From Candidatus Thorarchaeota archaeon (GTDB taxonomy: Archaea; Asgardarchaeota; Thorarchaeia; Thorarchaeales; Thorarchaeaceae), in the NCBI GenBank assembly GCA_030669595.1, contig DAOVDG010000002.1, positions 1-56,773 on the forward strand: a stretch of 56,773 nt of DNA. Reading direction: 5' to 3'. A program made the position numbers and the translations under genes. Shown one piece after another: positions 40,390 through 53,814 of this stretch (within the stretch, counting starts at the first letter, position 1; each line of letters begins with the position of its first letter). The notes beneath the pieces are model-generated. The model saw nothing but the letters and a program-made list of their open reading frames with translations. It ran no database searches and had not been told where the DNA came from.

Positions 40390-40400
40390 GGCTGCTCCAA

Positions 40401-41567
40401 ATGAAACCTGTCTATGTCGTAGGAGTTGGCATGACCCATTTTGGAGTGCTAGAGGATTCGATTCTTGAGCTGGCCGAGAACGCTGCATATGAAGCAATGG
40501 AAGATTCAGGCACAATCGAGCACAAGTTTGATAGGATTGTAGTCGGGTCCCAGAATCCTGACGAATTTACAGGAATGGGTCATCTGTCAACACTTCTGGC
40601 TGACCGATTAGGGATGGTTCCTGCAGGAGCGACGCGGGTAGAAACAGGACCTTCATCCGGTTCCAGTGCTTTTGAAGTGGCCTATGCATTTGTCGCGGCT
40701 GGACTGGCTGATCTAGTTCTTGCGATTGGCGTCGAGAAGATGTCGAGCGTTGATCGCGGAACGGCTTCTGGTATCCTCGCCAAGATGATGTCGTATGAGA
40801 ATGAGACTCGATATGGTGCAACGCCTACTGCACTTGCTGCTATGGTAGCTAGACGCTACATGCATGACTTTGGACTCACCAGAGAAGAGCTATCCTTGGT
40901 GCCGGTGAAGGCTCACCGAAACGGGGCAAAGAACCCGTTGGCACATTTTCGGAAAGAGGTTTCAGTGGAGAAGGTCAGCAATGGCCGTATCGTTTCAGAC
41001 CCTTTGACACTGTATGACTGTTGTCCTACAAGTGATGGGGGTGCAGCTTTGGTTGTCCTGTCCAAAACCAAGATGAGGGAACTTGGATGCTCTGACAGAG
41101 CCATCAAGGTACTAGGTGTTGGCCATGGCACCGATTTTCATGCTGTTCAACATCGTCTTTCTCTCACATCATTTGGGGCAACAGTTGAGGCGGCCCGGAA
41201 TGCGTTCAAGATGGCCAACCTCCAGCCGAGCGCCATTGATGTAGCTGAGATTCACGATGCATTTTCCATTCTTGAACTTGTGAATATGGAGGACATTGGA
41301 TTTGTCGACTCCGGGAAGGCTATTGGCTTGGTCCGTGATGGTTCGGCTCAAGTTGAGGGTGATTTGCCAATAAACCCCAGTGGAGGTCTCAAGGCTCGGG
41401 GTCACCCGACGGGCGCCACTGGCATCGCTCAGATTCGTGATGTGGTGCTCCAGCTCAGGAATGAATCACCAAATGGACTGCAGGTCGACTCGCCAGAACT
41501 AGCACTCACTCATAATATCGGGGGCTTTGGAAACAACATGGTTGTGGCAATCTTCGGAGTCACCTGA
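40401..41567 (+). CDS. Thiolase-fold protein (SCP2/archaeal thiolase-like) lacking the canonical nucleophilic Cys
   Basis: ORF 40386..41567 with the ATG at 40401 (MKPVYVVGVGMTHFG). LYDCCPTSDGGAALVV, INPSGGLKARGHPTGATG, THNIGGFGNN. Where thiolases have VEAACASG, this protein has VETGPSSGSS (Pro codon at 40650..40652). Confidence 0.75.
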   Translation: MKPVYVVGVGMTHFGVLEDSILELAENAAYEAMEDSGTIEHKFDRIVVGSQNPDEFTGMGHLSTLLADRLGMVPAGATRVETGPSSGSSAFEVAYAFVAAGLADLVLAIGVEKMSSVDRGTASGILAKMMSYENETRYGATPTALAAMVARRYMHDFGLTREELSLVPVKAHRNGAKNPLAHFRKEVSVEKVSNGRIVSDPLTLYDCCPTSDGGAALVVLSKTKMRELGCSDRAIKVLGVGHGTDFHAVQHRLSLTSFGATVEAARNAFKMANLQPSAIDVAEIHDAFSILELVNMEDIGFVDSGKAIGLVRDGSAQVEGDLPINPSGGLKARGHPTGATGIAQIRDVVLQLRNESPNGLQVDSPELALTHNIGGFGNNMVVAIFGVT

Positions 41568-41874: not shown

Positions 41875-43041
41875 ATGCCCGAAGGATTAGCCGTACTGAA
41901 ATGGGATGATGAGCTGGGCCCTGTTGTGACCTCAAAGACACCAACGGGTCTGAAGGTTGGACTTGATCCAACCACATCAATGAGAGTCTATGGAATAGCT
42001 ACGTTGGGAGAAACTGAAGAGGCCCAAAAGCCTGGCTTCAGTTCTCTGTCGTTTGACAAGTTCAAACTGGCAGTCTACTATGGTGGACTCAACATGCACC
42101 TCAAGGGATTACCTTCGATGGTGTTCCTTGTTCTGGATCCAGATGAAGATCCGGATGTCTACAAGGATGCCTTGCCAGAGATAGCGACACAGATATTTCT
42201 CAACGCAGATGGCAAGAAGTACATCAAAATGGTGCCAAAGCTATACGAGCAGATAGCAAGATACACAATGATGACTCCTGAGCAACGTCAGGCGTCCATC
42301 CTGAGCGACCCCATCCGGAGAGCGATTCTCCGGACCCTCATGAGGGATGGTACCTTACAATCCACAGATCTCGAACAGATTATCTTCGAAGAGGTTGGCA
42401 AGAAGATAGATGTCGACCTAATCCTGAGACCTCTTGTCAAGATGGGCATCGTCGCGACAGGCTGGATTGAAGGTCTTTCCTCCGAAGTAATCTACCTTAC
42501 GAGGGCTATCTTTATTTTGCGCAGGATATCTCAAGACACCATTCGAGCAGTGAAGTCAGGATCACTACCGCCAGAGGTCATCGATAGCTTCCTCGATTCC
42601 ACAAAGCGCTATCACAGGGACTACATTGCGAAGCTGAGGAGAAACCTAACCGATACGATTTGGACTGAGGCAGAGGAGTTGTCAAAGTACCTGCTCGATT
42701 TCGAGGCCTATGATCTTCTTCAGATTCTACGAGAAGGGCCAAAGCAAACTGAGCACTTGCCGAGTCTTCTCGAAACCACGAAAGCAAAGCTGAGAAAGAA
42801 GCTGAAAACGATGGAGAAAGCTGGCATTCTCGTGCGCGTCAATGACGAGGATGGCAAAGAGCATGTCCTGCTCAAGAGCAGTCCAGAAGTGGTCACTGTC
42901 TACCCAGAATGGCTAATTCAGCGGACGGTTGACCTCTACAATCAAGAAGAGATTCACAGCCGGCAAGCGGGGCACTATCTTGAGATTCTCAAAAAGTTCC
43001 ATCCAAGTGCTGTTTCTTCCACTATGATGGAGCTGGAATAA
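41875..43041 (+). CDS. Longin/roadblock-like N-terminal domain plus two winged-helix domains (first gene of the cluster)
   Basis: The N-terminal ~130 aa reads MPEGLAVLKWDDELGPVV...FSSLSFDKFKLAVYYGG...SMVFLVLDPDEDPDVYKDALPEIATQIFL. WH1 is DPIRRAILRTLMRDGTLQSTDLEQII...LRPLVKMGIV. WH2 is YDLLQILREGPKQTEHLPSLLETTKAKLRKKLKTMEKAGILVRVNDEDGKEHVLL. Confidence 0.6.
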   Translation: MPEGLAVLKWDDELGPVVTSKTPTGLKVGLDPTTSMRVYGIATLGETEEAQKPGFSSLSFDKFKLAVYYGGLNMHLKGLPSMVFLVLDPDEDPDVYKDALPEIATQIFLNADGKKYIKMVPKLYEQIARYTMMTPEQRQASILSDPIRRAILRTLMRDGTLQSTDLEQIIFEEVGKKIDVDLILRPLVKMGIVATGWIEGLSSEVIYLTRAIFILRRISQDTIRAVKSGSLPPEVIDSFLDSTKRYHRDYIAKLRRNLTDTIWTEAEELSKYLLDFEAYDLLQILREGPKQTEHLPSLLETTKAKLRKKLKTMEKAGILVRVNDEDGKEHVLLKSSPEVVTVYPEWLIQRTVDLYNQEEIHSRQAGHYLEILKKFHPSAVSSTMMELE

Positions 43042-43042
43042 A

Positions 43043-43117
43043 GTGCGCAGGACCGGCCATATTCTGATTCTGGCGGCATTTGTGGTATTCCTAATGCTTC
43101 CTATGGGTGTTGGCGAC
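43043..43117 (+). other. Signal-peptide-like N-terminus of the giant protein
   Basis: MRRTGHILILAAFVVFLMLPMGVGD has a basic n-region, a hydrophobic core and small residues before D. Confidence 0.6.
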
Positions 43118-46100
43118 CAAGCTACTCCTCTCCGCAGCGATGCGGATGGCCTCCCCATGCTGGTTGATGGTGGATACCAAGTCGCGGGAGGCCAGGATTC
43201 AGCGGACTGGTGGAACTCCACTTACGTTTACCGCCGCTACTATAACTTCACGGAGCCCGGTGTGACTTCTAGAACCCTGACTCCAGTACATCTGTACCTC
43301 TCCTTCTCTGATGGCCATTGTTACAGGGATTCGATACGTGTGGGCTACTACGACACCCCTGGATGGTCAATACTCCCGTTTCAGCTATGGAACACGACCT
43401 ACGATTCGACTGGCAACTACATTGAATCGACGCGTGTCAGCTTTATGGTTAATGTGAGCCAAGGGCAGACAGAGTCCAACTACTACATCTACTATGCCAA
43501 GATTGACGTTGGCTCAGTCAGCTATCCTGACTTTTATCCCTTCATCTACAAGAGCTTCACATTCTCGCTGGTCAACCTTGTTTCATACTATGACAGCAAC
43601 AAGTACCTGGTTGAGATGTATGATACTGCAGGCGAGCAGTGGGATGACCCCGGGAATGTTGACTCAAGGTGGTCCTCGAGCCAAGTGACTCCAAACAACA
43701 TCCCCAACGGCACGCTTGACAGGTTCGAAAACATGAGATACGAGCCGACCAGCTACAGCTACACCAAGTTTCGTGGGTACTACGCAGTCTACTCCAACTA
43801 TCCGCTGGCAGTGACCATGGGTCAGGGCAACATGGGCTCAAACCCTGCAATCAACGACTGGTATCCCGGCGTCAACCAACTCAGCTCTGGAGTGGGCACC
43901 GAGTTCATTATTGGCGGGGTCGAGGGGTTCGAGAGTCGCAATGAGGGCAAGTACTGGGTCTTGGCAGTCGAGGACAACACAGAGGTGTATGCTTGGACCT
44001 CGGGTGAAACCGCCGACACGGGCTGGAAGTTCTCTGGCAATAACTCGGACATCACAGCGTGGCCGGCTGTGTTGAGGGCAGGCGAGTACGTATCTAAGAG
44101 AGACATGGTCTACACAACCTATGTGAAAGTGAACTCGACTAAGCCCATGGTGATCCGACAGGGGGACTCTGACTGCTCTTACGCAAGGGACATCTGGGCG
44201 TTCTATCCGGACATGACCGGTGCTCTCGCCGGGGAGGAGTTCTACACGATTGACATGGGCAATGGGAACGACCGTACCCGAGTCACGAACTTGGGCGACA
44301 CTAGCGTCCAGGTAGACTGGTGGAGAGACTCTGGTTCGGGTTGGGGAACTAAGAGCACGTTGACAATAGCGGCTAACAGTTCCCAGTTGATCAGCCAAGG
44401 CACTGCCAGTTCGACGAACCAGGAAGATGTTCTCCACATCAAGGGACCTGGCGGCTCGATGCTGATGGTCGAGGGAGTGTATAACCCTGGTTCGGCAACC
44501 GACGCTGGGGACTGGGTTCCGACGATCACTGGACACCGCTTCGGCACCAATCTGAAACTGTGGGGTAGAAACGGCTACAAATTCATGGTCGTGGCCACTG
44601 AGAACGCACTTGTCGACATCAGCGGCTACAATGATGGTCAGCTTGAAATCCCTGCAGGTGGAATGGCCGCATTTCGGCCATTGTCATCCAGCACAACTCT
44701 GTACCACATCACATCGAATGCGTCGGTTGGCGTTGTCGACCTTGGGCGGTTCTCAACTTCCACTCCCTACAATCCAACCGGGGACACAGGCTATGGCTGG
44801 CAGGTCCCGGCGTACGTGCCTGAACAGGACCAGAAGGGCTTCTCGATTGACCTCGGTGAGGAGCGACACCTGTTCGAGTTCGACATCACTGTAGTAGATC
44901 TTGATGACGTAGCGGTTTCCAGTGCCACTGTCACTCTTCACAACGCAAGCACAGGCGATGTCTGGGAGGACGAGCAGCACAAGAACCGCACGGGAACCAC
45001 GGACAGCAATGGTCTTATCATCTTCGAGGGCCTCAGCAATGGGACCTACGAGGTTCGAACCCGGATCGATGCAGCTCCGTGGCTGGCCATGTCGGCTTCG
45101 ATCACCCACGTGTGGATAACGGACGTGTCGAATCATCCCATCACAGGTTCTGTCACCCCCGTCACCATTACGCTGAACATGGCGTCCCTTGACATACATC
45201 TGGACGATCTGATGGACTCGTCGATGGATGACACTCTTGATGAGGACATCTACATGAGAGCCTGCAACGATACTGGCGATGACTCCATCTATATACACCA
45301 GGCGCAAGCGAACTCAACAGGTTGGCTGCACTTCCCAAGGATCCCACAGGATGACTACTACTTCAGGGCAAGATACACAGGCGAACACACGTGGAACTCG
45401 TATGGATTCGATGACCTACTGAGGTTCGCCAACTGGTCTGTTTCTGCCAGCGAGTTCGCGTCTGGGTCTTTCACGAAGCCCGCCTGGAAGCTACCTCTGA
45501 TTACAGTCCAAATCCATGTTCATAGCTGGGATGATATGGTCGTTCCTGACGCATTCATCAAGATGAACAACAGCCTTGAGCCTCTCACATATGTCATGAC
45601 GGAGAGCACAGATTCCAACGGGAACTACACATTCAACAGGATAGTGAACGGCACATGGAATCTTGATGTCTGGCGGAATGACGACTTTGGGCTGAAGGTA
45701 GTAAACAACACAGGCGCCGCGAGGCTGACAGACTTGCAGGGCTACACCTCCTTCGAGGTGCAGCTGCGACTCACGAAGCTCAATATCAGAGTGCAGAGGT
45801 CCGGAGGTGACCGTGTGCCCTATGCCACAGTGACAGTCTATCTGAACAACCAGACACCTGTGGCCTACGGGCAGACGGACCCAAGTGGGGAGGTCGTGTT
45901 CGAGTGGATTCGTGGCAACATGACGGACCCCTGGTTCTACTGGTACACGATAGATGTTGTCAAGGGTGATGCAAACAGAACGAGGGTGAATGTTACTGCC
46001 GACTCGGACTATACAGTATGGAACATAATCGTACTCCCTGATCCCACCTACTCAAAGACCTACACTGAGATAACTTCGGACTACAGTTTCGAACAGCGGT

Positions 46101-49100
46101 ACTGGTACGTGGATCTCGTATTCTGGATAGACTACTACAACCTCACTGGTTCAGAACCCGGTGTTGGCACCAACATAACGTACGATGCCACAACCCTGCT
46201 CGAGTTCGAGATATATCGTGGAGTCACTCTGGTCGGACGAGGAAATTGGACCACAGGCAGTAAGTCCTTCATGGAGAACATGCCGTGGCCAGGTGGTCGA
46301 AGGTTCACCATTACAATAGATCTTGACTACTGGAAGCTCAACGCAAGTGACACGGCCTACAGGATTGCCATCACAGCCTACACCAACGGCTATGATGACC
46401 CAGACCCTCTGGTTGTGTATTTGACAGTGCTCCAAGCTGAAACCTCCTGTGGGTCAGACGTTTCAGTGATCTCCGAGCCCTATCAGATGCACCATGAACA
46501 CCTGTTCTGGCTCACGGATCTGACGAACGACGGCAATCTGTCCGTTCTTGACACCTACAACTACACAGTGAAGTCAGGACTCACCACTGTTCTCGCCGGC
46601 TATCTATACAACAATGGGAATGGCACATTCAGTCTGCTCCCGAGCATGCTTTCCGGTCTGGTAGTTGGGGAATACGTCTTGGTCATCGAGCTGGATGAAC
46701 TCAACTGTGTCGGCGCAACGATTGAGGTACAGCTGGAGGTCACTGAAGCACCCATGGTTGTAGTTCTCTCCAATCCGGGCAACTACGAATGGTCCTTGAG
46801 TGCTGACAGTATGTCGTTCCAGTATCTGTGGGACAATTCCACAAGCCCTGACCTCTTGAGTGTTGACGTGACCATCCAATGGATCAACAACGACACAGGC
46901 CAAGTATATATCACAGTCCATCTTACACTCGACCCCATCGGTTCCAACTACATCTATGGTTTCAACCGGGATGTTGTGCCAAGCGGCAACTGGGATGTGA
47001 ATGTGACATGCTCCAAGGCCAACTATGCCTCCGCATGGGACTACTACGCCTATGTCTTGGTCACAGAGGCAGAAACGGGCTTGTGTGTCATCACGATTGA
47101 CCCCGTCACTGTGGAATGGGGCAGTGACGCCACATTCGAGGTCGTCTATAATCGGACAAGTGACGGATCAGGTCTTCCTGATGCCGCGTCCTCTCACAAC
47201 TGGTCTAGAGGAGTCACCGTTGACGATCTTGGCTCTGGACATTACTCGATCACTGTGGACACACTGGTTGAGTCAGGAAGCTATGCACTTCTGCTTGACA
47301 TGTCACTTGCGAATCACCAGACAGCAGTCATCAACCTGAACATCACGATACGGATTCCTCTTCGGATAGAGTCAGACTATGACTCCATTGAAACTCCACT
47401 GGAAGCCTACTGGACTCACAACTTCAGTCTCAGTGTGGTTCTCATAGATCAGTCAACCAACCAGCCAATCGCCGGAGCAACGGTCACCTACTCATGGTAT
47501 CTAGAGTTCGTAGTCGATTTGGAGGGTAACCTTGATCCCTACAGTGGCGGCATATACAATACGACACTGAACGGATGGGATGCAGTCCCACTGGAAGACC
47601 TGTATTCCATCGTGATCACAGCCAACATGGCGGGCTGCACTGAAACATCCGCGATCATCTTCTTGCGTATCAACGAGGTCCCGAACGAGATTGTGCTGGA
47701 AACCGAGTACTTCGAGGCGTTCTACGCAGATGTGTTCGATGTCAGGTTCTACTGGAACAACACTCTGGACAATGCACCAATCGAATATGCAGACGCGGAG
47801 GAATACTACCTGATCACCCTCGGCAGAAGCATAGCGACTGGTGTCAATGAGGGTGGAGGTTGGTATCACTTCGCCGTGAACACAAGAGATCTGGAGATGA
47901 GTGCCAAGGTGCAGGGATCGGTCTATGTGATTAGAATCACTATGACGAAGAGCGGACTTCAGGCCCATGAGCTCACAACGGTGATTGTGTTGGTGCGCGA
48001 GACCGACGCGTCCCTTGTGATTGACGCGATTGGCAACGTGAACTGGTCTGATCCGTTCCAAATCACGGCCCGTCTTTACGATGCTCATCCCGATCACGGG
48101 CACATGTTGATCTGGGATGGCGCAGTGGTGACAGTGAGCTATGGATCATTATCGATACAGATGACGAACAACGGAGACGGTACGTTCTCAGCAACTAACC
48201 AGTCAGACGCGTGGTTCTCTGCATCATCAAGTCCCTACAATCTGACCTTCACCTATACCCTGCCAAACTACGTGGACAATGTAAACATGTCCGCAATTGT
48301 CATCGTTCCGATACCCGGTCTCATCCTGAAAGACGCCCCAACGGGGACTCCTCTTGAGTACACATGGGGGACATCGTTCGAGCTCAAGGTTCATGTGTAT
48401 AACATCTATGAGGGAGCGTCCGACTCGTTGGCGGACGCCGCTGTCTTCTATCTCTGGAGCAGCTTCGACAGTCTATACCCGTTGGTCTACAGGTCCGGTG
48501 TGTTCTACTACAACGTGTCAGTTCTTACAACGCAGGTGTCTGCAGGGTCCTATTACCTCATAGTTAGAGTGGTCAACGAGAACCTCACAATTCCGGATTT
48601 GGAGGTGCCTATTACTGTCGCGCCTGTTGGCACGACTTTTGGGAGCGATACTGATAGGATCGATGTGATTCAAGGTGTGGACGAAACCACAATAATCACC
48701 TTGACCTACCTTGATGAACAGAGCAACCGGCTCGATGACGCTACAGTCTACTACGAGTGGGCGGGTCTCATGAGATATGGGTCCTACAGCGCGGGTGTGT
48801 TTGTGTGCGAGTTCAATCCCAGCGGGTCAAGTCTGACGGTGCCTGGAATCTACACTCTGACATTCCATGCTGAACTTCAGAATTACACATCTAGGATCTT
48901 CAATGTGACACTTGTCCTCAATGCAGCCACTGAGATGCGTGCTGACGATGCCATTTTAGAGTCAGACCAGACATTGACGTTGTACTTCATATTCTGGGAT
49001 CTTACGAACGATGCTGAGGTGCCAACTGACATTGTCACATCTGTGGGTGTGATTCTGCCTGGCGGTACGCAAGTCACTCCAGCGGTTGAACACGACACTA

Positions 49101-50110
49101 ACGGATACTATGTGATCTTGACTGCTGGTCAAATTGGCGAGATACAGACTGAGGGGTATGATATCATTTTGGTGGGGATTGCGCCTGGATACCAGAATCA
49201 CACACAGAGCGTCAATCCGCAGTTCGTTGAGGTCACCATAATCGAGCCGCAGGTGTTCATCCCCCTAATATCGAGTCTTATAGGTCCCATCCCACGATCA
49301 ATGCTCATCCTCACAGGATTTCTGGTTGCCATATTCGGGGCGCTTGTGGGAAGTACAGTCGCGATTCGTCGTTGGCGCATCCCCTATCAAATCAAGCAAA
49401 TCAACAAGGCCCTGAAGGCAGTGGAGTCTGGTAAGCGGGCAAAGGTTGAGAATATCAAGACTATGGGTGGGGTGATATCCGATGTGCTAGCACCAGGATT
49501 GGCAGCACTGGATATCACTGCTCCAATTATTGATGAGGTCACTGAGGATCGCATCGAAGAAATCCTGGGTGAGGATACCGAGGAACTTCTCGACGAACTC
49601 GATGCCCTTGATGAGATTGGGGCTGATGAAGTCGAGGCACCAGAGGAAGCACCTGATTTTGAAGCGGAACTTGCCGCTGAGATAGAAACAGTCGTTGAGG
49701 AAACACCTGAGCCAGAAGAGCTAATCGAAGCACCTGCAGAAGTGGAGGAACCGGAAGCTGAACTCGAGGAGGTTCTTGAGGAGCCAGAGCCTGAGCCAGA
49801 AGAGCTTGAGGCAGAGGTTGTAGAATCAGAGGTCGAGGAACCCGAGCTCACCACTGAGGAGGTTCCCGAGGACGTTGAGGAGAAACTCCCTGAATCTGAG
49901 CTTGAGCCAGAAACCCCCGTAGAAGAGGAAGCTGAGCCTGAGCCAGAATCGACTGAACCTGAGTCAAGAACGCAGTTGACAAAGAGGGAGCTAATCGAAC
50001 AGCTACCTTCCGAAATCAAGGAATCAATGTCTGAAGACGAGCTGAGGAAGCTCTCAAAGAAGGAACTCCACGCACTTTTCGACTCCATGAATAATACTGA
50101 GGATGCATGA
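43043..50110 (+). CDS. Giant (2355 aa) type-I membrane / surface protein: signal peptide, sequon-rich beta-rich ectodomain, one TM segment, acidic cytoplasmic tail
   Basis: The GTG start lies 1 nt after the upstream stop. Single uninterrupted 7.07-kb ORF. Carboxypeptidase-regulatory/prealbumin-like segments include VTLHNASTGDVWEDEQHKNRTGTTDSNGLIIFEGLSNGTYEVRTR, TESTDSNGNYTFNRIVNGTWNLDVWR and VTVYLNNQTPVAYGQTDPSGEVVFEWI. By manual count there are about 48 N-x-S/T sequons before the TM segment. Confidence 0.9.
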   Translation: MRRTGHILILAAFVVFLMLPMGVGDQATPLRSDADGLPMLVDGGYQVAGGQDSADWWNSTYVYRRYYNFTEPGVTSRTLTPVHLYLSFSDGHCYRDSIRVGYYDTPGWSILPFQLWNTTYDSTGNYIESTRVSFMVNVSQGQTESNYYIYYAKIDVGSVSYPDFYPFIYKSFTFSLVNLVSYYDSNKYLVEMYDTAGEQWDDPGNVDSRWSSSQVTPNNIPNGTLDRFENMRYEPTSYSYTKFRGYYAVYSNYPLAVTMGQGNMGSNPAINDWYPGVNQLSSGVGTEFIIGGVEGFESRNEGKYWVLAVEDNTEVYAWTSGETADTGWKFSGNNSDITAWPAVLRAGEYVSKRDMVYTTYVKVNSTKPMVIRQGDSDCSYARDIWAFYPDMTGALAGEEFYTIDMGNGNDRTRVTNLGDTSVQVDWWRDSGSGWGTKSTLTIAANSSQLISQGTASSTNQEDVLHIKGPGGSMLMVEGVYNPGSATDAGDWVPTITGHRFGTNLKLWGRNGYKFMVVATENALVDISGYNDGQLEIPAGGMAAFRPLSSSTTLYHITSNASVGVVDLGRFSTSTPYNPTGDTGYGWQVPAYVPEQDQKGFSIDLGEERHLFEFDITVVDLDDVAVSSATVTLHNASTGDVWEDEQHKNRTGTTDSNGLIIFEGLSNGTYEVRTRIDAAPWLAMSASITHVWITDVSNHPITGSVTPVTITLNMASLDIHLDDLMDSSMDDTLDEDIYMRACNDTGDDSIYIHQAQANSTGWLHFPRIPQDDYYFRARYTGEHTWNSYGFDDLLRFANWSVSASEFASGSFTKPAWKLPLITVQIHVHSWDDMVVPDAFIKMNNSLEPLTYVMTESTDSNGNYTFNRIVNGTWNLDVWRNDDFGLKVVNNTGAARLTDLQGYTSFEVQLRLTKLNIRVQRSGGDRVPYATVTVYLNNQTPVAYGQTDPSGEVVFEWIRGNMTDPWFYWYTIDVVKGDANRTRVNVTADSDYTVWNIIVLPDPTYSKTYTEITSDYSFEQRYWYVDLVFWIDYYNLTGSEPGVGTNITYDATTLLEFEIYRGVTLVGRGNWTTGSKSFMENMPWPGGRRFTITIDLDYWKLNASDTAYRIAITAYTNGYDDPDPLVVYLTVLQAETSCGSDVSVISEPYQMHHEHLFWLTDLTNDGNLSVLDTYNYTVKSGLTTVLAGYLYNNGNGTFSLLPSMLSGLVVGEYVLVIELDELNCVGATIEVQLEVTEAPMVVVLSNPGNYEWSLSADSMSFQYLWDNSTSPDLLSVDVTIQWINNDTGQVYITVHLTLDPIGSNYIYGFNRDVVPSGNWDVNVTCSKANYASAWDYYAYVLVTEAETGLCVITIDPVTVEWGSDATFEVVYNRTSDGSGLPDAASSHNWSRGVTVDDLGSGHYSITVDTLVESGSYALLLDMSLANHQTAVINLNITIRIPLRIESDYDSIETPLEAYWTHNFSLSVVLIDQSTNQPIAGATVTYSWYLEFVVDLEGNLDPYSGGIYNTTLNGWDAVPLEDLYSIVITANMAGCTETSAIIFLRINEVPNEIVLETEYFEAFYADVFDVRFYWNNTLDNAPIEYADAEEYYLITLGRSIATGVNEGGGWYHFAVNTRDLEMSAKVQGSVYVIRITMTKSGLQAHELTTVIVLVRETDASLVIDAIGNVNWSDPFQITARLYDAHPDHGHMLIWDGAVVTVSYGSLSIQMTNNGDGTFSATNQSDAWFSASSSPYNLTFTYTLPNYVDNVNMSAIVIVPIPGLILKDAPTGTPLEYTWGTSFELKVHVYNIYEGASDSLADAAVFYLWSSFDSLYPLVYRSGVFYYNVSVLTTQVSAGSYYLIVRVVNENLTIPDLEVPITVAPVGTTFGSDTDRIDVIQGVDETTIITLTYLDEQSNRLDDATVYYEWAGLMRYGSYSAGVFVCEFNPSGSSLTVPGIYTLTFHAELQNYTSRIFNVTLVLNAATEMRADDAILESDQTLTLYFIFWDLTNDAEVPTDIVTSVGVILPGGTQVTPAVEHDTNGYYVILTAGQIGEIQTEGYDIILVGIAPGYQNHTQSVNPQFVEVTIIEPQVFIPLISSLIGPIPRSMLILTGFLVAIFGALVGSTVAIRRWRIPYQIKQINKALKAVESGKRAKVENIKTMGGVISDVLAPGLAALDITAPIIDEVTEDRIEEILGEDTEELLDELDALDEIGADEVEAPEEAPDFEAELAAEIETVVEETPEPEELIEAPAEVEEPEAELEEVLEEPEPEPEELEAEVVESEVEEPELTTEEVPEDVEEKLPESELEPETPVEEEAEPEPESTEPESRTQLTKRELIEQLPSEIKESMSEDELRKLSKKELHALFDSMNNTEDA
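49301..49366 (+). other. Single predicted transmembrane helix of the giant protein
   Basis: MLILTGFLVAIFGALVGSTVAI is followed by the positive stop-transfer sequence RRWRIPYQIKQINK. Confidence 0.7.
49532..49966 (+). repeat. Low-complexity acidic E/P/A/L-rich cytoplasmic tail segment
   Basis: DEVTEDRIEEILGEDTEELLDELDALDEIGADEVEAPEEAPDFEAELAAEIETVVEETPEPEELIEAPAEVEEPEAELEEVLEEPEPEPEELEAEVVESEVEEPELTTEEVPEDVEEKLPESELEPETPVEEEAEPEPESTEPES. The Ser-rich minus-strand ORF 49387..50088 is its antisense shadow. Confidence 0.85.
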
Positions 50111-50267: not shown

Positions 50268-51149
50268 ATGATACGAGAGATTCACGTCTTCAAGGACGGG
50301 CAAACCCTCTTTGAGGACGTCATTGTCCCGAATAGGGACCTTGACACGAACGCAGTCATGATGTTGGTTTCCTCCTCAACGAAGAAGTTGCAGGAGTGGA
50401 AGATTGACAGCATGGAGATTGAGCGTTTTCGATATGTGTACATGAACAGCCATGACACGCAATTCATCATCACGATGGATCGGCAAGCCTCCCTGATGAA
50501 GGTCAATGAGGCCATGATGAACATGGTTTCCAAGTTCATGACTGTCTTCGAGAGCGTTCTTGAAACTGACGAGTGGAAATCCACAGATTTCTCTCCATTC
50601 GGGGTTGCCTTCAGACATCTTGTGGGACGCATTCCGGTGAAGCTCTGCCTAGCGGGGCATGGCGGAACTGGCAAGACTACGTTGCTGGAACTTGCGACGC
50701 TTCCCTCACAAGGTCCGCCACAGGAGTACGTGCCAACCTTCTTTGGCGACAAGGCGATGTTGAAAGCTGATTTCGATCCTTACGTGTTCAGCATCTTCGA
50801 CCTAGGTGGTCAGGACCGATTTGTGCAGGAGTGGGGGAAGATAATTCGTGCAGGCAGCATGGTTGTCATAGTATCGGACTCAACTAAGGACAATATAGCC
50901 TGGACGAAACGAGTGGCCTACCCTGTCTTGAAAACCGAGCTGCCATATGCTCGATGCATTGCAGTCGCCAATAAGCAGGACCTCAAAGGTGCGATGTCGC
51001 CACAGGAGGTGGGCCGGAAACTTGGCGTACCCGCGTATGGCATGCAAGCCAATCAGCGGGATTTCAGGCAAAGATGGCTTGGTCTCCTCAAGGAGCTTGC
51101 CTTTGAAACATGTGATTTTAAAATCGCAGCAGAGATTGAGGTGGATTAG
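50268..51149 (+). CDS. Arf-family-like small GTPase with an N-terminal ~120-aa longin/roadblock-like domain
   Basis: G1 is GHGGTGKT (50655..50678). Switch-I candidate is YVPTFFG. G3 is DLGGQ (50799..50813). G4 is NKQD (50970..50981), within AVANKQDLKGAMSPQEVGRKLG. The N-terminal domain reads MIREIHVFKDGQTLFEDVIV...ERFRYVYMNSHDTQFIITMDRQASLMKVNEAMMNMVSKFMTVFESVLETDEW. Confidence 0.8.
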   Translation: MIREIHVFKDGQTLFEDVIVPNRDLDTNAVMMLVSSSTKKLQEWKIDSMEIERFRYVYMNSHDTQFIITMDRQASLMKVNEAMMNMVSKFMTVFESVLETDEWKSTDFSPFGVAFRHLVGRIPVKLCLAGHGGTGKTTLLELATLPSQGPPQEYVPTFFGDKAMLKADFDPYVFSIFDLGGQDRFVQEWGKIIRAGSMVVIVSDSTKDNIAWTKRVAYPVLKTELPYARCIAVANKQDLKGAMSPQEVGRKLGVPAYGMQANQRDFRQRWLGLLKELAFETCDFKIAAEIEVD

Positions 51150-51722
51150 ATGTCTCCTGAAAATGAATCAAAGAGTATAATCAATGAAGCGGAACGAAAA
51201 CGCCTCGTAGAGGAGATTGGTCGGATAAAGGACGTGCTTGATTCGTTCAAGTATGGCCTGAATTTTGAAGATTTCGCCGACGAGCTCTTCAAGACTGTAA
51301 ACAGGCAGACGATTACTATCAAGAATCTCGATGCGAAGATGTCAGATATCGTTTCTCGTATGGAGCGCCTTGAAGAACGTCTGAACGAAGGCATCAAGGT
51401 CCGAGTTTCAGGACTGAGCGGAGAACTGACAGGAGACCTTGCTGAGGGTAAGGAGGTCATAATCGAAGGGCCTCTTGTCGAGGAGCCCCCTGAGGAGGAC
51501 CTTGCCGCCAAGGCATCACGAGAGGAGCTTGAAACGGAAGCGGCCAATATTGAAACCAAGATTGCCAAGCTCTTCGAGAAAGAGAACGAGCTTCTTGAAA
51601 TGGCGTTGAACGACCCCGCCGGGGCCGATGAGTACGATGGACGGGCCAAGGTGGCAATAGAGATGAGAGGAGAACTTGAAGCATCTCTCAAGAAGATAAA
51701 GGAACAGCTTAAGCAATACTAG
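51150..51722 (+). CDS. Acidic coiled-coil protein (190 aa)
   Basis: The ATG immediately follows the GTPase stop (TAG at 51147..51149). GAGGTGG at 51138..51144 lies 5 nt upstream. Heptad-like helices at both ends (AERKRLVEEIGRIKDVLDSF; REELETEAANIETKIAKLFEKENELLEMAL; ELEASLKKIKEQLKQY). Confidence 0.7.
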   Translation: MSPENESKSIINEAERKRLVEEIGRIKDVLDSFKYGLNFEDFADELFKTVNRQTITIKNLDAKMSDIVSRMERLEERLNEGIKVRVSGLSGELTGDLAEGKEVIIEGPLVEEPPEEDLAAKASREELETEAANIETKIAKLFEKENELLEMALNDPAGADEYDGRAKVAIEMRGELEASLKKIKEQLKQY

Positions 51723-51725
51723 AAT

Positions 51726-51732
51726 GAGGTGG
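51726..51732 (+). promoter_or_regulatory. Shine-Dalgarno-like GAGGTGG
   Basis: It lies 8 nt upstream of the ATG at 51741. Comparable elements sit at 51138..51144 (GAGGTGG), 52099..52105 (GAGGTGA) and 53459..53463 (GGAGG), before the other downstream cluster genes. Confidence 0.5.
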
Positions 51733-51740
51733 AAGTGAAT

Positions 51741-52100
51741 ATGGGATTATTCGACAGCTGGAGAAGAAGAAGACGAAAGAAAGAAGTTGTGGCACCGAAA
51801 GAACGCAAGAGTTCAGAAGCTGAGGCACCCACGCCTACTCGTCCGGAAGGACTAACTCCTGTCGAAAAGGGCGAGGTTGCTGATCTTGTGGCTCAGTATG
51901 AGAAGCTCCACAAGAGGCGCGCTGAGCTTCATACGGAACGAGCGCAGTTGACGGATCAGCTTGATACTGGTGAACTGACAGCTCTTAAGTTCCGCAAACA
52001 GCTTATGTTGAAAATACAAGAAGCTGCGCAGGTTTCTGACAACTTGAAGGAAACGGTCTCTAGGCTTATTGCACTCGGCTATCGTGGTGTGCTTCACTGA
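51741..52100 (+). CDS. Small protein with a basic N-terminus and a helical hairpin (possible Snf7/ESCRT-III-like N-terminal core)
   Basis: ORF 51729..52100. The ATG at 51741 is favoured by RBS spacing. MGLFDSWRRRRRKKE is followed by a Pro/Ala/Glu linker. Then come two long helices: VADLVAQYEKLHKRRAELHTERAQLTDQLDTGELTALKFRKQLMLKIQEAAQVSDNLKETVSRLIALG. Confidence 0.6.
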   Translation: MGLFDSWRRRRRKKEVVAPKERKSSEAEAPTPTRPEGLTPVEKGEVADLVAQYEKLHKRRAELHTERAQLTDQLDTGELTALKFRKQLMLKIQEAAQVSDNLKETVSRLIALGYRGVLH

Positions 52101-52111
52101 GGTGATTATTC

Positions 52112-53446
52112 TTGCCGGGTCGGGAAGAAAGGGGCCGAAACGACTCTGGTCCTTCAGACACAGAAGAGGAAACTCAGCGACTCATGGAGGACGCCATGAG
52201 CGGCGATATCTCTGAGAAGTCCCCAAAGGAAATTCTGGTCACCACAGCTGCAGAATCTATCGACGAAACATTCCACCGCATTCAGGTTCGCATAGAGGAC
52301 ATTCTTTCTTCCATCGAAGATAGCGTGAGATTAGTTGAACCCGAACTTAACGAGAAGCTCGAAGTCACTTTGGAGCGGCTGAATACACGGCTCAAAGGTG
52401 CTGGTCTGGGAGTTTTTGTAACGACTGCCATGAAGATGACCGATGAAGAACTAAGGAAAGGCATGTCAGCGGAGGGTCTTCTCTCACCGATTCTTAACGC
52501 TATTAGTGAAAGTCGTAGCGAAGTTGAAGACATCGTGATGAAGGCCGGCAGGGGTGCTGTACGTAACGTTGGTGAGTCCACAGGGAGTCTTCAAACCAAG
52601 ATTGTGCAGATGTATGCTACGCTGAATGAGCATGAGAAACAGCTTGATGCCACCCGCGCAGAATTGAAACGATGGAGAGAACGGGCAAACGAACTTCAGG
52701 ACCTTGTCAAGTCGAGAGACGAAACGATGGAACGGTCCGTTGAAGTTCTTGAACAAATGCGAACGGCTCGTGCCGAACTAGAGCGCTTGAATGAGGAGCA
52801 TGAACAGACTATCTCTACCGTGAAGGGCGAACTCAGTCAGGCGCAGTCGCAGATAGAACAACAAAAAGAGCTTTTAGATAAACATGGTTCATTTGAGGAA
52901 ATCGCGCAGGACTATGAAACGAAGCTAGTTGAGCTATCTGAGGTACAAGGGCAGCTTGCTGAGGCTCAGGAGCGACTGGCGCAAAGAGAAGACACTGTCG
53001 AATCATTGAAAGCTGAGGTTCAGATGCTAAAAGAGAGCAACTCGAATCTAGAATCACAGATGAGCTCGATGACAGAGGAGGCAGCTGCTCTTAGAGGTGT
53101 GAAGAAATCTGACCAAACTGAGCTGGAGTCATTAAAGGCACAACTAGATGAGCTGAAAGCACGATGGGAGAATCTCTATCAGGTCGCAGAGGATGAACCG
53201 GCTTTCAGAGCATATTTCATGATAGCGGACAAGAAATTCACTTGGCTTCCACTCTCGCACCTTTCACAGGCCCTAGGTGTTCCAACCGTTCTACTGAAGA
53301 GGAATTTGCAGAAGTTCGTTGATGCAGGCCTTGTAGAGATCGAGGGTGACCGTGTTCGTCCCTTGAGCATGTCTGAATTAGCAGCAAAGCCAGAGGATGC
53401 AGACAAGTCAGACGCAACAGGCAGTCAGGACAACACTAGCGAGTAG
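52112..53446 (+). CDS. Long coiled-coil protein with a C-terminal winged-helix domain (444 aa)
   Basis: The TTG start lies 6 nt after GAGGTGA. An extended heptad region covers roughly residues 170-350 (QLDATRAELKRWRERANELQDLVKSRDE...LESLKAQLDELKARWENLYQ). The C-terminal part reads FTWLPLSHLSQALGVPTVLLKRNLQKFVDAGLVEIEGDRVRP. Confidence 0.7.
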   Translation: MPGREERGRNDSGPSDTEEETQRLMEDAMSGDISEKSPKEILVTTAAESIDETFHRIQVRIEDILSSIEDSVRLVEPELNEKLEVTLERLNTRLKGAGLGVFVTTAMKMTDEELRKGMSAEGLLSPILNAISESRSEVEDIVMKAGRGAVRNVGESTGSLQTKIVQMYATLNEHEKQLDATRAELKRWRERANELQDLVKSRDETMERSVEVLEQMRTARAELERLNEEHEQTISTVKGELSQAQSQIEQQKELLDKHGSFEEIAQDYETKLVELSEVQGQLAEAQERLAQREDTVESLKAEVQMLKESNSNLESQMSSMTEEAAALRGVKKSDQTELESLKAQLDELKARWENLYQVAEDEPAFRAYFMIADKKFTWLPLSHLSQALGVPTVLLKRNLQKFVDAGLVEIEGDRVRPLSMSELAAKPEDADKSDATGSQDNTSE

Positions 53447-53472
53447 CATTTCTAGATTGGAGGATTTTGCAG

Positions 53473-53814
53473 ATGCCCAAACCACTCGGCGAGGTAATGA
53501 GATTCCTAGAGAACTACACACTAGCATGGCATCACTGGCTAATTGTGCTGTCACTCTTGAAGCTAAAAGGTAGTGGAACAAAAGGTCAAATCTTTCCAGT
53601 CTTCAAGAAGGAGGGTTTCTCTCTTCATGCTATTGAGGGGATATTCAAGCGAGACCTCGAAGAACTAGGTGAGGTAATCGAGGTTGAGGAGGGCATCGAC
53701 AATCTCCAAGACAGCAGTACTATATACCTTACCGAAGACCCGAAGTTCAGATCTTATCTGAAGAAGCATTTGAAACCTGTTATCCGGACCCTTAAGACGC
53801 GCAAGATAGACTAA
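53473..53814 (+). CDS. Small winged-helix-like protein (last gene of the cluster)
   Basis: ORF 53467..53814. The ATG at 53473 lies 9 nt after GGAGG (53459..53463). WHHWLIVLSLLKLKGSGTKGQIFPVFKKEGFSLHAIEGIFKRDLEELGEVIEVEEG. Confidence 0.5.
   Translation: MPKPLGEVMRFLENYTLAWHHWLIVLSLLKLKGSGTKGQIFPVFKKEGFSLHAIEGIFKRDLEELGEVIEVEEGIDNLQDSSTIYLTEDPKFRSYLKKHLKPVIRTLKTRKID

What the first reader, a model, noticed from the sequence alone, without database searches (positions are those of the whole stretch)
43043..50110. 2355-aa type-I membrane protein with about 48 N-glycosylation sequons and an extremely acidic E/P-rich cytoplasmic tail
This single 7.07-kb ORF has a signal-peptide-like start (43043..43117). 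The ectodomain is built from beta-rich modules, and several segments resemble carboxypeptidase-regulatory/prealbumin-like folds. I counted about 48 N-x-S/T sequons by hand, e.g. NST, NFT, NTT, NVS, NGT.

One TM helix lies at 49301..49366, followed by the stop-transfer sequence RRWR. The tail that follows is about 247 aa. Its core (49532..49966) is almost entirely E, P, A, L and V, with PEPE/EEPE repeats. It ends in a more ordinary helical segment (TKRELIEQLPSEIKESMSEDELRKLSKKELHALFDSM).

Surface giants are common, but a long structured-looking cytoplasmic tail encoded next to a small GTPase and coiled-coil proteins suggests outside-in or inside-out coupling rather than a passive S-layer or adhesin role.
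Basis: partly seen in the sequence, partly recalled or inferred. Interest (0 to 1): 0.62.

Follow-up and report, generated by a model that had tools for sequence, protein, structure and literature searches.

The report
Variable giant Thorarchaeota surface receptor
This gene encodes a huge, sugar-coated, fast-evolving cell-surface protein of an uncultured Asgard (Thorarchaeota) archaeon; its conserved inner tail and its inheritance together with two coiled-coil proteins inside a small-GTPase operon make it a testable candidate for an adhesion or recognition receptor wired to the cell interior.

Summary
The ORF at 43043..50110 is intact (2355 aa). It has a signal-peptide-like start, 48 ectodomain N-x-S/T sequons (21.6±4.0 expected), one TM helix followed by RRWR, and a 247-aa acidic tail.

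It belongs to a family found full-length only in one family of Thorarchaeota, always at the same locus.

New here:
- The head (residues ~60-610) folds as a compact all-beta unit with no PDB match.
- The gene is hypervariable. It is 49% identical to a relative whose flanking genes are 95-96% identical. It is mosaic against a congener (84/43/84%).
- The tail has three parts: an invariant ~100-aa juxtamembrane module, a variable acidic linker, and a ~40-aa terminal motif. The motif also ends other, unrelated giant membrane proteins and occurs in a soluble HEAT-repeat protein.
- The upstream 388-aa gene, 1 nt away, is an NPRL2-like longin plus tandem winged-helix protein.
- The giant, cc190 and cc444 sit at three positions interleaved among the core genes (p388, Arf-like GTPase, cc123, p115). 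The giant co-occurs with both: cc190 in 29/33 genomes with the giant versus 0/20 without.

Best reading: a polymorphic adhesion or recognition receptor coupled to a cytoplasmic GTPase/coiled-coil module. The coupling is inferred from genomics only.

The parts
41875..43041 (+). p388: NPRL2-like longin domain (res 1-131) followed by two winged-helix domains (res ~135-217 and ~276-342). Its stop codon lies 1 nt before the giant's start codon.
   Evidence: The AF2 model has pLDDT 86.1 and pTM 0.75, with bb-a-bbb-aa topology in the N-terminal domain. Foldseek finds GATOR1 NPRL2 chains (prob 0.99-1.0; rmsd 4.6 over 144 columns), DENND10, ESCRT-II and PF0095. HTH hits appear. The 1-nt spacing is conserved in L007, L008, L009, L019 and L020.
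43043..50110 (+). Giant type-I surface glycoprotein gene (2355 aa).
43043..43117 (+). Signal-peptide-like N-terminus (res 1-25).
   Evidence: Hydropathy analysis. Its position is conserved in homologues. No signal-peptide predictor was available.
43217..44875 (+). Compact all-beta head (res ~59-611). Its first beta-sandwich (res ~50-165, WWNSTYVYRRY...) is shared with many other large Asgard ORFs.
   Evidence: AF2 of res 26-620 gives pLDDT 85.4 and pTM 0.86. There is no global PDB or BFVD match (TMq <=0.2). This region has the densest invariant columns in the protein. The phylum scan finds matches to res 8-200 in ORFs of 1264-2602 aa.
44873..46042 (+). Transthyretin/CarboxypepD_reg-like modules (res ~611-1000).
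   Evidence: Pfam CarboxypepD_reg, SpaA and SdrD_B, plus weak MG, fn3_3 and NOMO hits.
46043..49300 (+). Long beta-rich stalk (res ~1001-2086), probably about 10 Ig-like modules. This is inferred; the region was not folded.
   Evidence: Only weak Pfam hits. Homologues carry precomputed Ig_DR_A0283-like, bMG3 and SdrD_B hits.
45143..47632 (+). Central variable cassette (res 701-1530).
   Evidence: It is 43% identical to the congeneric orthologue P0003, against 84% for res 1-700 and 84% for res 1531-2355.
49301..49366 (+). Single TM helix (res 2087-2108), followed by RRWR.
49367..49687 (+). Conserved cytoplasmic juxtamembrane module (res 2109-2215): RRWRIPYQIKQINKALK...GGVISDVLAPGLAALDI.AP...LLDELDALDEIG...DFEAELAAE.
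   Evidence: Invariant columns are P2114, K2118, Q2119, I2120, A2123, G2142, L2149, A2150, G2152, L2153, P2161, L2183, L2186, L2189 and E2213. The module is kept in the paralogues P0036 and P0038. In the alignment of the tail with L019's (59% identical overall), this stretch reads as nearly identical (by eye), while the whole giant is 49% identical to L019's.
49688..49966 (+). Acidic E/P-rich linker (res 2216-2308). It is variable in sequence and length and is presumably disordered.
   Evidence: Some orthologues carry a helix-hairpin-helix insert here (P0020; HHH_5 E 4e-11 and 3e-11).
49967..50089 (+). Terminal ~41-aa helical motif (res 2309-2349), a portable C-terminal tag.
   Evidence: An HMM finds it in the second giant P0040 and in a soluble HEAT-repeat protein of the same genome. 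A profile search gives 38 hits, including the extreme C-termini of other giants of 2251-3730 aa. P0008, P0010 and P0016 lack it. The DUF7179 match is below cutoff.
50268..51149 (+). Arf-like small GTPase (G domain res 124-255) with a ~120-aa N-terminal extension. It is a core gene of the cluster.
   Evidence: Pfam Arf E 2.1e-12. The best PDB matches are Arf1, Arl and 8oun_A. The motifs GHGGTGKT, DLGGQ and NKQD are read.
51150..51722 (+). cc190: acidic coiled-coil protein, inherited together with the giant.
   Evidence: Present in 29/33 giant-bearing and 0/20 giant-less family genomes.
51729..52100 (+). cc123: basic N-terminus (MGLFDSWRRRRRKK) plus a helical hairpin. It is a core gene.
   Evidence: An orthologue (45% identity) is present in the giant-less locus L055. 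No PDB relative was found.
52112..53446 (+). cc444: long coiled coil with a C-terminal winged-helix-like end, inherited together with the giant.
   Evidence: Present in 29/33 giant-bearing and 1/20 giant-less family genomes, on the giant's contig a few kb from its end in the genomes where both are placed (e.g. G027, G075). Only coiled-coil family hits were found.
53467..53814 (+). p115: small core protein of the cluster.
   Evidence: An orthologue (60% identity) is present in the giant-less locus L055.

Best explanation
The gene encodes an accessory, hypervariable, heavily N-glycosylated type-I surface protein specific to Thorarchaeota.

A compact, strongly conserved all-beta head sits at the tip of a long stalk of transthyretin-like and Ig-like modules. 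It is the likely ligand- or partner-binding end. The stalk's middle third is exchanged between strains.

Behind one TM helix lies a cytoplasmic tail with three parts: an invariant ~100-aa juxtamembrane helical module, a flexible acidic tether, and a portable ~40-aa end motif shared by several families of giant membrane proteins.

I propose that the protein is a polymorphic adhesion or recognition receptor for cell-cell, cell-partner or cell-substrate contact. Its placement, anchoring or turnover in the membrane would be controlled from inside by the operon's switch. That switch consists of an Arf-like GTPase and an NPRL2-like longin/winged-helix regulator (p388). The two co-inherited coiled-coil proteins (cc190, cc444) would act as adaptors that bind the juxtamembrane module.

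Shown here:
- architecture and sequon excess;
- lineage restriction;
- hypervariability and mosaicism;
- tail conservation pattern;
- the fold of the head and of p388;
- tight gene spacing;
- co-inheritance.

Inferred:
- glycosylation itself;
- cytoplasmic location of the tail;
- any physical contact between the tail and neighbouring proteins;
- the adhesive function;
- the direction of control.
For: Architecture.

Tail location. RRWR follows the TM helix. Orthologue tails carry helix-hairpin-helix inserts. The end motif also occurs 2-3 times in a soluble HEAT-repeat protein with no hydrophobic segment. These points place the tail in the cytoplasm.

Constraint inside the cell. 15 residues of the juxtamembrane module are invariant in 34 homologues at 42-70% identity. 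The module is retained in the 34%-identical paralogues.

Surface exposure and diversification. The L019 genome is 95-96% identical in thiolase, p388, GTPase and acyl-CoA dehydrogenase, yet its giant is only 49% identical. Identity to congeneric P0003 is 84/43/84% across three segments. The locus carries 0, 1 or 2 giants in different genomes.

Coupling to the operon:
- p388 stops 1 nt before the giant's start in 5/5 loci read.
- In L007 the p388+giant pair is duplicated as a unit.
- Giant, cc190 and cc444 occupy three positions interleaved with core genes and co-vary. cc444 is in 29/33 giant-bearing versus 1/20 giant-less genomes. cc190 is in 29/33 versus 0/20. Both states occur within genera g1, g8 and g12.
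- My hand-computed hypergeometric point probability for the cc190 table is about 5e-11, uncorrected for phylogeny.
- Giant-less loci L047 and L055 keep p388, GTPase, cc123 and p115.

The switch. p388 is NPRL2-like. The GTPase is Arf-like.

Context from the literature. Asgard cells lack a cell wall and are decorated with surface proteins. They crawl while adhered, and an ARF GTPase co-precipitates with Lokiactin (PMC13716822).
Against:
- Thiolase upstream and DUF35 plus acyl-CoA dehydrogenase downstream flank the cluster in the four genomes whose loci were read and in the two giant-less loci. Plain vertical synteny therefore explains part of the linkage.
- The co-occurrence counts are not phylogenetically independent. 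The giant scan scored only 2 candidates per genome.
- The end motif occurs on giants without GTPase neighbours (P0040). Three orthologues lack it.
- The head has no recognisable ligand-binding relative.
- The tail and cc190 are both acidic, which does not favour a simple electrostatic contact.
- AglB was not found in this MAG.
Confidence: 0.5

Rival explanations
1. It is a passive surface coat or glycocalyx protein that acts as an S-layer substitute. It shields the wall-less cell, and its variability comes only from virus or predator pressure. The neighbouring GTPase and coiled-coil genes help only with its biogenesis or are linked by descent.
For: It is very large, has a high sequon load (about one per 43 residues) and a C-terminal membrane anchor. 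It is hypervariable within conserved flanks, as is typical for exposed envelope proteins. The metabolic flanks of the locus are syntenic too.
Against: It is absent from many >=90%-complete genomes of the same family and even the same genus, so it cannot be the essential envelope. The head is the best-conserved extracellular part, which points to specific binding rather than shielding. An invariant ~100-aa cytoplasmic module and co-inherited cytoplasmic partners are not needed for a passive coat.
Confidence: 0.2
2. The giant is cargo. Its tail (juxtamembrane module, acidic cluster, end motif) is a sorting or retention signal. The Arf-like GTPase, the longin proteins and the coiled-coil tethers read this signal to deliver or confine the giant to particular membrane regions such as protrusions or vesicles. 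This would be a proto-trafficking system.
For: Arf-family G domain. NPRL2/DENN-like longin regulator. Golgin- and tether-like coiled coils. The same end motif tags several unrelated giant membrane proteins and a HEAT-repeat (solenoid) protein, as expected for a shared sorting tag.
Against: The end motif is dispensable in orthologues that keep the cluster. It also occurs on giants without such neighbours. No coat-like protein is encoded in the cluster. No internal membranes are known for Thorarchaeota.
Confidence: 0.18
3. The gene order is a historical accident. The giant was inserted into a pre-existing p388-GTPase operon and persists there without any functional tie. The coiled-coil genes belong to the GTPase system only.
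For: The p388-like and GTPase-like paralogues lie on the same contig without a giant elsewhere in the genome (C136). Reduced clusters function without the giant.
Against: Three interleaved genes are present or absent together within genera. The 1-nt p388-giant spacing is strictly kept in all 5 loci read, and in L007 each of the two tandem giants has its own p388 copy directly upstream.
Confidence: 0.12

Closest known systems
Fibrillar or giant adhesins of prokaryotes (head plus tandem Ig-like stalk plus anchor, e.g. SiiE, LapA/Bap-type, MpIBP) and archaeal C-terminally anchored surface glycoproteins (e.g. the Haloferax S-layer glycoprotein)
   Same: Large size, a distal folded head, a repetitive beta-sandwich stalk, heavy glycosylation sites, membrane anchoring at the C-terminus and strain-level variability.
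   Different: There is no RTX, LPXTG or PGF-CTERM anchor. Instead there is a true TM helix followed by a 247-aa cytoplasmic tail with an invariant module. The gene is embedded in a small-GTPase operon. The head fold has no solved relative.
Eukaryotic type-I adhesion receptors whose tails are read by adaptors under small-GTPase control (integrin-talin-Rap1/Arf6, cadherin-catenin)
   Same: Single-pass topology, a glycosylated modular ectodomain, a short conserved membrane-proximal cytoplasmic segment, and genetic association with a small GTPase and elongated adaptor-like proteins. This is how it may work.
   Different: There is no sequence or fold homology to integrins or cadherins. This protein has no FG-GAP propeller, beta-I or cadherin domains (the other giant of the genome, P0040, does have FG-GAP repeats). 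No heterodimer partner is shown. Coupling is inferred from gene linkage only.
GATOR1 NPRL2/NPRL3 acting on Rag GTPases, and the 'NPRL2-like' family reported in most Thorarchaeota MAGs (Liu et al., bioRxiv 10.1101/2020.10.19.343400)
   Same: p388 has an NPRL2-like longin domain plus C-terminal winged-helix-type domains. It is encoded beside, or one gene away from, a small GTPase.
   Different: The partner GTPase is Arf-like with its own N-terminal extension, not a Rag heterodimer. GAP activity and an arginine finger were not tested. A giant membrane protein lies between the two genes.
Bacterial membrane-linked small-GTPase modules: MglA/MglB with the Agl-Glt focal-adhesion machinery of Myxococcus, and the actinobacterial conservon (CvnA-D)
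   Same: A Ras-superfamily GTPase and a roadblock/longin-fold regulator are encoded together with a membrane or surface component. In Myxococcus they control surface adhesion sites from inside the cell.
   Different: The GTPase family differs (Arf-like, not MglA). There is no sensor kinase. The surface component is a single giant glycoprotein. The lineage is archaeal.

Membership tests
CarboxypepD_reg / transthyretin-like domain proteins (Pfam PF13620) | Match to the Pfam model above its gathering score | tested here: met
   50 bits against a cutoff of 32.3, E 3.9e-13, 3 stretches, the best at res 616-674. This covers only a small part of the protein.
Archaeal S-layer protein | Universal presence in the lineage, as expected for the main envelope component | tested here: not met
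   Absent from 20 listed genomes of the same family, 10 of them >=90% complete. This includes genomes of the same genera as carriers.
Archaeal S-layer protein | Forms a regular two-dimensional lattice and is among the most abundant proteins | not testable with these tools
   Needs cryo-ET or proteomics of a Thorarchaeota culture or enrichment.
PGF-CTERM / archaeosortase-processed surface glycoproteins | PGF motif plus a TM helix plus a short basic end at the extreme C-terminus | tested here: not met
   The TM helix (res 2087-2108) is followed by 247 residues, and there is no PGF motif.
Integrin alpha-type receptors | FG-GAP beta-propeller head | tested here: not met
   No FG-GAP hit in P0001. 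The head model has no propeller match. FG-GAP hits occur only in the other giant, P0040.
DUF7179 (Pfam PF23804), for the terminal motif | Match above the gathering score (27 bits) | tested here: not met
   20.4 bits on the isolated motif and 18 bits in the genome scan. The same model gives sub-cutoff matches (E<=1) in 7 of 14 control genomes.
Thorarchaeota giant family defined here (P0001-P0035) | Full-length collinear alignment, a conserved head, an invariant juxtamembrane module and the same locus downstream of p388 | tested here: met
   34 sequences of 2320-2841 aa (all but one 2320-2453 aa) at 42-70% identity. The locus is conserved in the 5 loci read, and p388, giant, cc190 and cc444 are co-located on one contig in many more genomes.
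NPRL2-like longin proteins (for neighbour p388) | Longin fold (bb-a-bbb-aa) with structural similarity to NPRL2, plus a C-terminal winged-helix-type domain | tested here: met
   AF2 topology. Foldseek finds 9o5a_H, 9o5d_D and 9v0j_A at prob 0.99-1.0. The global TM-score is low (0.25) because the domain arrangement differs.
NPRL2-like longin proteins (for neighbour p388) | GAP activity towards the partner GTPase through an arginine finger | not testable with these tools
   R37 and R129 are invariant, but their position relative to a GTPase cannot be modelled here.
Arf-family GTPases (for the neighbour at 50268..51149) | G1-G4 motifs and a best match to Arf/Arl | tested here: met
   Pfam Arf 47.3 bits against a cutoff of 22.3. 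Top PDB hits are Arf1/Arl. The motifs GHGGTGKT, DLGGQ and NKQD are present. Whether the N-terminal 120 aa is a longin domain was not tested. An hhalign comparison against the p388 longin profile was negative, with shallow profiles.

The most novel reading that the evidence does not exclude
Thorarchaeota possess a prokaryotic counterpart of a regulated adhesion complex. A polymorphic giant surface receptor would be clasped at its invariant juxtamembrane module by coiled-coil adaptors (cc190, cc444). Its engagement, clustering or removal would be switched by an Arf-like GTPase under an NPRL2-like longin regulator. The shared C-terminal motif would dock a whole class of giant surface proteins onto one common cytoplasmic (HEAT-repeat or cytoskeletal) partner. 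This would be an archaeal forerunner of eukaryotic receptor-adaptor-GTPase logic in adhesion and trafficking.
Probability: 0.17. Interest if true: 0.9.

Novelty: new variant of a known kind. Interest (0 to 1): 0.66.

Why it matters
[quoted passage not shown] Cultured members have no cell wall and carry unidentified surface proteins. They adhere and crawl using actin, and an ARF GTPase co-purifies with that actin (PMC13716822).

Which membrane proteins mediate adhesion is unknown. So is which regulators and effectors belong to which of the dozens of Asgard small GTPases. One reason is that these genes are usually not in operons (PMC10933270; bioRxiv 10.1101/2020.10.19.343400).

This locus offers a matched, conserved set:
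- a GTPase;
- a longin-type regulator;
- two coiled-coil candidates for effectors or adaptors;
- a transmembrane partner with a defined ~100-aa cytoplasmic module.

All of these are small enough, or divisible enough, for pull-downs, structure prediction of complexes and heterologous expression.

The strain-level replacement of the ectodomain also marks the protein as a likely target of viruses or a determinant of partner specificity in natural populations.

Tried and rejected
- DUF7179 as the identity of the terminal motif: below cutoff and unspecific.
- A known family for the head. Pfam on fragments at E<=10 gave nothing meaningful and NCBIfam gave nothing. Foldseek against PDB and BFVD found only local beta-sandwich, bicupin or jelly-roll similarity, with TMq <=0.2.
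- From memory I suspected a DUF2341-like first domain. No Pfam match supports this.
- PGF-CTERM or sortase-type anchoring: not present.
This is untested by structure.
- Homology between the GTPase N-terminal extension and the p388 longin domain: hhalign probability 0.1 with very shallow profiles, so the result is uninformative.
- A donor for the divergent allele of L019: its central cassette is also only 42% identical to that of P0008.
- Distant p388 relatives in other lineages. The genome-contig scan used very conserved peptides and returned only Thorarchaeota orthologues.
- AglB in the window's own genome: not found, probably because the MAG is incomplete.

Tools lost:
- The Python machine failed. 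As a result I could not run dN/dS, recombination-breakpoint, sliding-identity or phylogeny-corrected co-occurrence analyses.
- Only two structure jobs were allowed, so the stalk and the tail were not folded.


Full report
**Observation.** The window is the whole contig C18 of a 2.17-Mb MAG that is 84.6% complete.
- The ORF 43043..50110 (+) is intact: GTG start, 2355 aa.
- Residues 1-25 look like a Sec signal peptide.
- The only other strong hydrophobic segment is residues ~2087-2108, followed by RRWR.
- I count 49 N-x-S/T sequons. 48 lie in the ectodomain, against 21.6±4.0 in composition-preserving shuffles.
- At least seven sequon asparagines are invariant in 34 homologues.
- The 247-aa tail has 70 Glu, 14 Asp and 21 Pro.
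- Pfam recognises only CarboxypepD_reg/SpaA/SdrD_B-type modules around residues 611-710, plus weak MG/fn3/NOMO-like hits.

An oligosaccharyltransferase gene (STT3/AglB) was not found in this incomplete MAG. It is present in 19 of 21 relatives, including five of six congeners. N-x-S/T glycosylation has been shown in a cultured Asgard archaeon (PMC11284389).

**Who has it.**
- A search of 5.8 billion proteins returned 38 relatives. Nearly all are 2320-2450 aa and 40-69% identical. Those with names are labelled Candidatus Thorarchaeota.
- In a scan of 301 Asgard genomes, full-length matches occur only in the window's own GTDB family (33 genomes), plus a weak one in a sister family.
- A ~2200-aa paralogue aligns from residue ~610 onward at 33-36% identity. 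It has a different head and lies in tandem with the giant in several genomes.
- The first domain (residues ~8-165/200, WWNSTYVYRRY...) matches many other ORFs of 1264-2602 aa across the phylum. It is a common cap of Asgard giants.

**Ectodomain.**
- AlphaFold2 on residues 26-620, with 33 aligned sequences, gave a confident compact all-beta model: mean pLDDT 85.4, pTM 0.86.
- Foldseek found no global relative in the PDB or in BFVD (query-normalised TM <=0.2). It found only local bicupin, jelly-roll or beta-sandwich resemblance.
- This head carries the densest set of invariant Trp/Gly/Asp/Tyr/Pro columns in the protein. I read it as the functional, binding end.
- The remainder (residues ~611-2086) is a beta-rich stalk. 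Its module count is an inference, because I had no further structure jobs.

**Hypervariability.** Genome GCA_054182255.1 (locus L019) is a close relative. Identities to the window are:
- thiolase 95%;
- p388 95%;
- GTPase 96%;
- acyl-CoA dehydrogenase 95%;
- cc444 85%.

Its giant at the same position is only 49% identical. The tail is 59% identical overall, and its juxtamembrane ~115 aa read as nearly identical in the alignment (by eye).

Against the congeneric orthologue P0003, residues 1-700 are 84% identical, residues 701-1530 are 43%, and residues 1531-2355 are 84%. The gene is therefore a mosaic in which the central stalk, or the whole ectodomain, is replaced between strains. The locus holds zero, one or two giants in different genomes. 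This is the behaviour of an exposed protein under diversifying or frequency-dependent selection, from viruses, predators or partner and kin recognition.

**Tail.** Aligning 34 homologues splits the tail into three parts.
1. *Juxtamembrane module* (residues 2109-~2215): RRWRIPYQIKQINKALK...GGVISDVLAPGLAALDI.AP...LLDELDALDEIG...DFEAELAAE. It has 15 invariant residues and is also kept in the 34%-identical paralogues.
2. *Acidic E/P linker.* It varies in sequence and length. Some orthologues carry a helix-hairpin-helix insert here (P0020, P0170, P0176; HHH_5 E ~1e-11).
3. *Terminal motif* of ~41 aa (LTKRELIEQLPSEIKESMSEDELRKLSKKELHALFDSM).

An HMM of the terminal motif finds two more carriers in the same genome.
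- One is a second giant, P0040 on contig C5 (2306 aa). It has FG-GAP and Big domains, several TM helices and an acidic tail with the same ending.
- The other is a soluble HEAT-repeat protein on C59 that contains the motif 2-3 times.

A profile search of 1.84 billion representatives gave 38 hits.
- These include the extreme C-termini of giants of 2251-3730 aa with other domain content: DUF7738, BigA_N and Gmad2.
- One of them, P0189, has the same plan: single TM, E/P/V-rich acidic tail, motif.
- Orthologues P0008, P0010 and P0016 lack the motif, while P0008's locus (L007) still has the full cluster and P0010's genome keeps p388, cc190 and cc444 on the giant's contig (G128).

I conclude that the acidic tether plus end motif is a portable cassette of Thorarchaeota giant membrane proteins. 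It presumably docks onto a common cytoplasmic partner. The juxtamembrane module is the family-specific element. The soluble HEAT-repeat carrier, the HhH inserts and the positive-inside rule all place the tail in the cytoplasm.

**Neighbourhood.** The gene order is:
- thiolase;
- 307-nt gap;
- p388;
- 1 nt;
- giant;
- 157 nt;
- GTPase;
- 0 nt;
- cc190;
- 6 nt;
- cc123;
- 11 nt;
- cc444;
- 20 nt;
- p115;
- DUF35;
- acyl-CoA dehydrogenase.

The same order holds in the loci L007, L008/L009 and L019; in L020 a second giant precedes the GTPase and the contig ends inside p115. In all of them the p388 stop lies 1 nt before the giant's start. In L007 the p388+giant pair is duplicated as a unit.

*p388.* It folds confidently (pLDDT 86.1, pTM 0.75). 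The model shows an N-terminal longin topology (bb-a-bbb-aa) followed by two winged helices. Foldseek's best matches are:
- NPRL2 chains of GATOR1 (prob 0.99-1.0; rmsd 4.6 Å over 144 columns);
- SEA-complex chains and DENND10;
- for the winged helices, ESCRT-II subunits and PF0095.

An 'NPRL2-like' family in most Thorarchaeota MAGs is already in the literature (bioRxiv 10.1101/2020.10.19.343400).

*GTPase.* The G domain is Arf-like, and longin-GTPase fusions are known in Asgard archaea (PMC10933270). I did not test whether its 120-aa N-terminal extension is a longin domain. A profile comparison with the p388 longin domain was negative, but the profiles were very shallow.

**Co-inheritance.**
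- Two of the most divergent p388 loci fetched (L047, L055) read thiolase, p388, GTPase, cc123 orthologue, p115 orthologue, DUF35, acyl-CoA dehydrogenase. They have no giant, no cc190 and no cc444. For L055 this was confirmed by pairwise identities of 76%, 45% and 60%.
- Among 53 genomes of the family, cc444 is found in 29 of 33 giant-bearing genomes and in 1 of 20 giant-less ones.
- cc190 is found in 29 of 33 giant-bearing genomes and in 0 of 20 giant-less ones.
- At least four of the exceptions lie at contig ends (G016, G176, G185, G209); the others are in fragmented assemblies.
- Both states occur within genera g1, g8 and g12.
- The p388 orthologue is present in all but one giant-bearing genome (G281, 87% complete, gave no match) and in some giant-less ones. 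About 14 genomes have only a ~26%-identical paralogue. That paralogue lies on the same contig as a 598-aa Arf-like GTPase in the window's genome (C136).

The family therefore shows three states: full cluster, reduced cluster or none. The giant, cc190 and cc444 occupy three positions interleaved with core genes, yet they come and go together. My hand-computed hypergeometric point probability for the cc190 table is about 5e-11. It is not corrected for shared ancestry, and the giant scan scored only two candidates per genome. The numbers should be taken as strong but not final.

**Interpretation.** The extracellular part looks like an adhesin or recognition receptor: a conserved head on a long, glycosylated, strain-variable stalk. 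The intracellular part and the gene linkage argue that it is not free-standing.
- An invariant membrane-proximal module is under stronger constraint than almost all of the ectodomain.
- The only genes that track the giant's presence are two cytoplasmic coiled-coil proteins, embedded in an operon of an Arf-like GTPase and an NPRL2-like regulator.

The most economical mechanism is as follows. cc190 and cc444 bind the juxtamembrane module and connect the receptor to the GTPase switch. The switch controls where or whether the receptor is engaged.

I give this reading about 0.5. Rival readings are:
- a passive coat (0.2; contradicted by patchy distribution and by the conserved tail);
- a cargo-sorting system (0.18);
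- accidental linkage (0.12).

Nothing here shows binding, signalling direction, glycosylation or expression.

**Comparison with known systems, and novelty.**
- Architecturally the protein resembles prokaryotic fibrillar adhesins and archaeal anchored surface glycoproteins.
- Functionally the closest analogies are eukaryotic receptor-adaptor-GTPase adhesion systems and the bacterial MglA/MglB focal-adhesion and conservon modules.
- It is a member of none of these. S-layer universality, a PGF-CTERM anchor, an FG-GAP head and DUF7179 membership were tested and not met.
- My literature searches found no description of this giant family, its tail modules or its co-inheritance with the coiled-coil genes.
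- Recent work stresses that Asgard adhesion molecules are unidentified and that an ARF GTPase associates with Lokiactin (PMC13716822).
- Earlier notes of this scan report the same themes in other Thorarchaeota genomes. I treated them as leads and re-derived the shared points here.

I classify the finding as a new variant of a known kind, with interest 0.66.

Noticed in passing
G000 contig C5:13328-20245 (-) = L015:8325-15245 (-): A second giant membrane protein of the same genome (P0040, 2306 aa). It has FG-GAP repeats and Big/filamin-type Ig domains, then several TM helices, an acidic tail and the same terminal motif (LTKSDLIDLLPPEIKESVGLEELTKLSKSALEALL). Its neighbours are metabolic genes (nitronate monooxygenase, Fe-ADH, aldehyde:ferredoxin oxidoreductase), not GTPases.
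   Followed up: partly
G000 contig C59:9100-10299 (-) = L069: A soluble HEAT-repeat protein of ~370-400 aa. It carries 2-3 copies of the giants' terminal motif separated by Lys-rich and acidic linkers. Its orthologue is P0184. Its neighbours include a VWA-domain protein, an Rce1-like CAAX protease and an NfeD-like protein. It is a candidate common partner or competitor for the tail motif.
   Followed up: partly
G000 contig C136:829-5498 = L014: A paralogous mini-locus. It has a p388-like protein (27% identity) and a 598-aa Arf-like GTPase with a long C-terminal extension, here separated by a DDE transposase. The p388-like paralogue is present in nearly every genome of the family.
   Followed up: partly
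window 40386-41567 and 53876-54205: A thiolase-fold gene and a DUF35 (zf-ChsH2/OB) gene flank the 12-kb cluster. In giant-less relatives they are only ~4.6 kb apart (L055). The cluster looks like an expandable insert inside a fatty-acid or acyl-CoA gene block.
   Followed up: partly
window 43118-43642 (res ~26-200 of the giant): The first beta-sandwich domain with the WWN[ST][ST][FY].YRR signature matches, at 31-43% identity, the N-termini of many other ORFs of 1264-2602 aa in other Asgard families. No Pfam model matches it.
   Followed up: partly
P0020, P0170, P0176 (orthologues, tail region): Some orthologues have a helix-hairpin-helix (HHH_5) domain inserted in the acidic cytoplasmic linker. 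This is an odd domain to find in the tail of a surface protein.
   Followed up: no
window 33708-35576 (+): A 622-aa family-5 solute-binding protein with an N-terminal signal sequence, a Pro/Thr-rich linker, a C-terminal TM anchor and several sequons. It is the same protein class as the only highly N-glycosylated protein found in the cultured Asgard archaeon P. syntrophicum (PMC11284389).
   Followed up: no
window 35608-36426 (-): A 272-aa protein with leucine-rich repeats followed by a C-terminal zinc ribbon. Its function is unknown.
   Followed up: no
window 51729-52100 (+): The core protein cc123 begins MGLFDSWRRRRRKK, a short hydrophobic and strongly basic N-terminus that could bind membrane. 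This start is conserved in the giant-less locus L055 (MGIFDRWRRKKK).
   Followed up: partly
window 55613-56773 (-): An ORF of at least 386 aa that runs off the contig end. It has no Pfam match.
   Followed up: no
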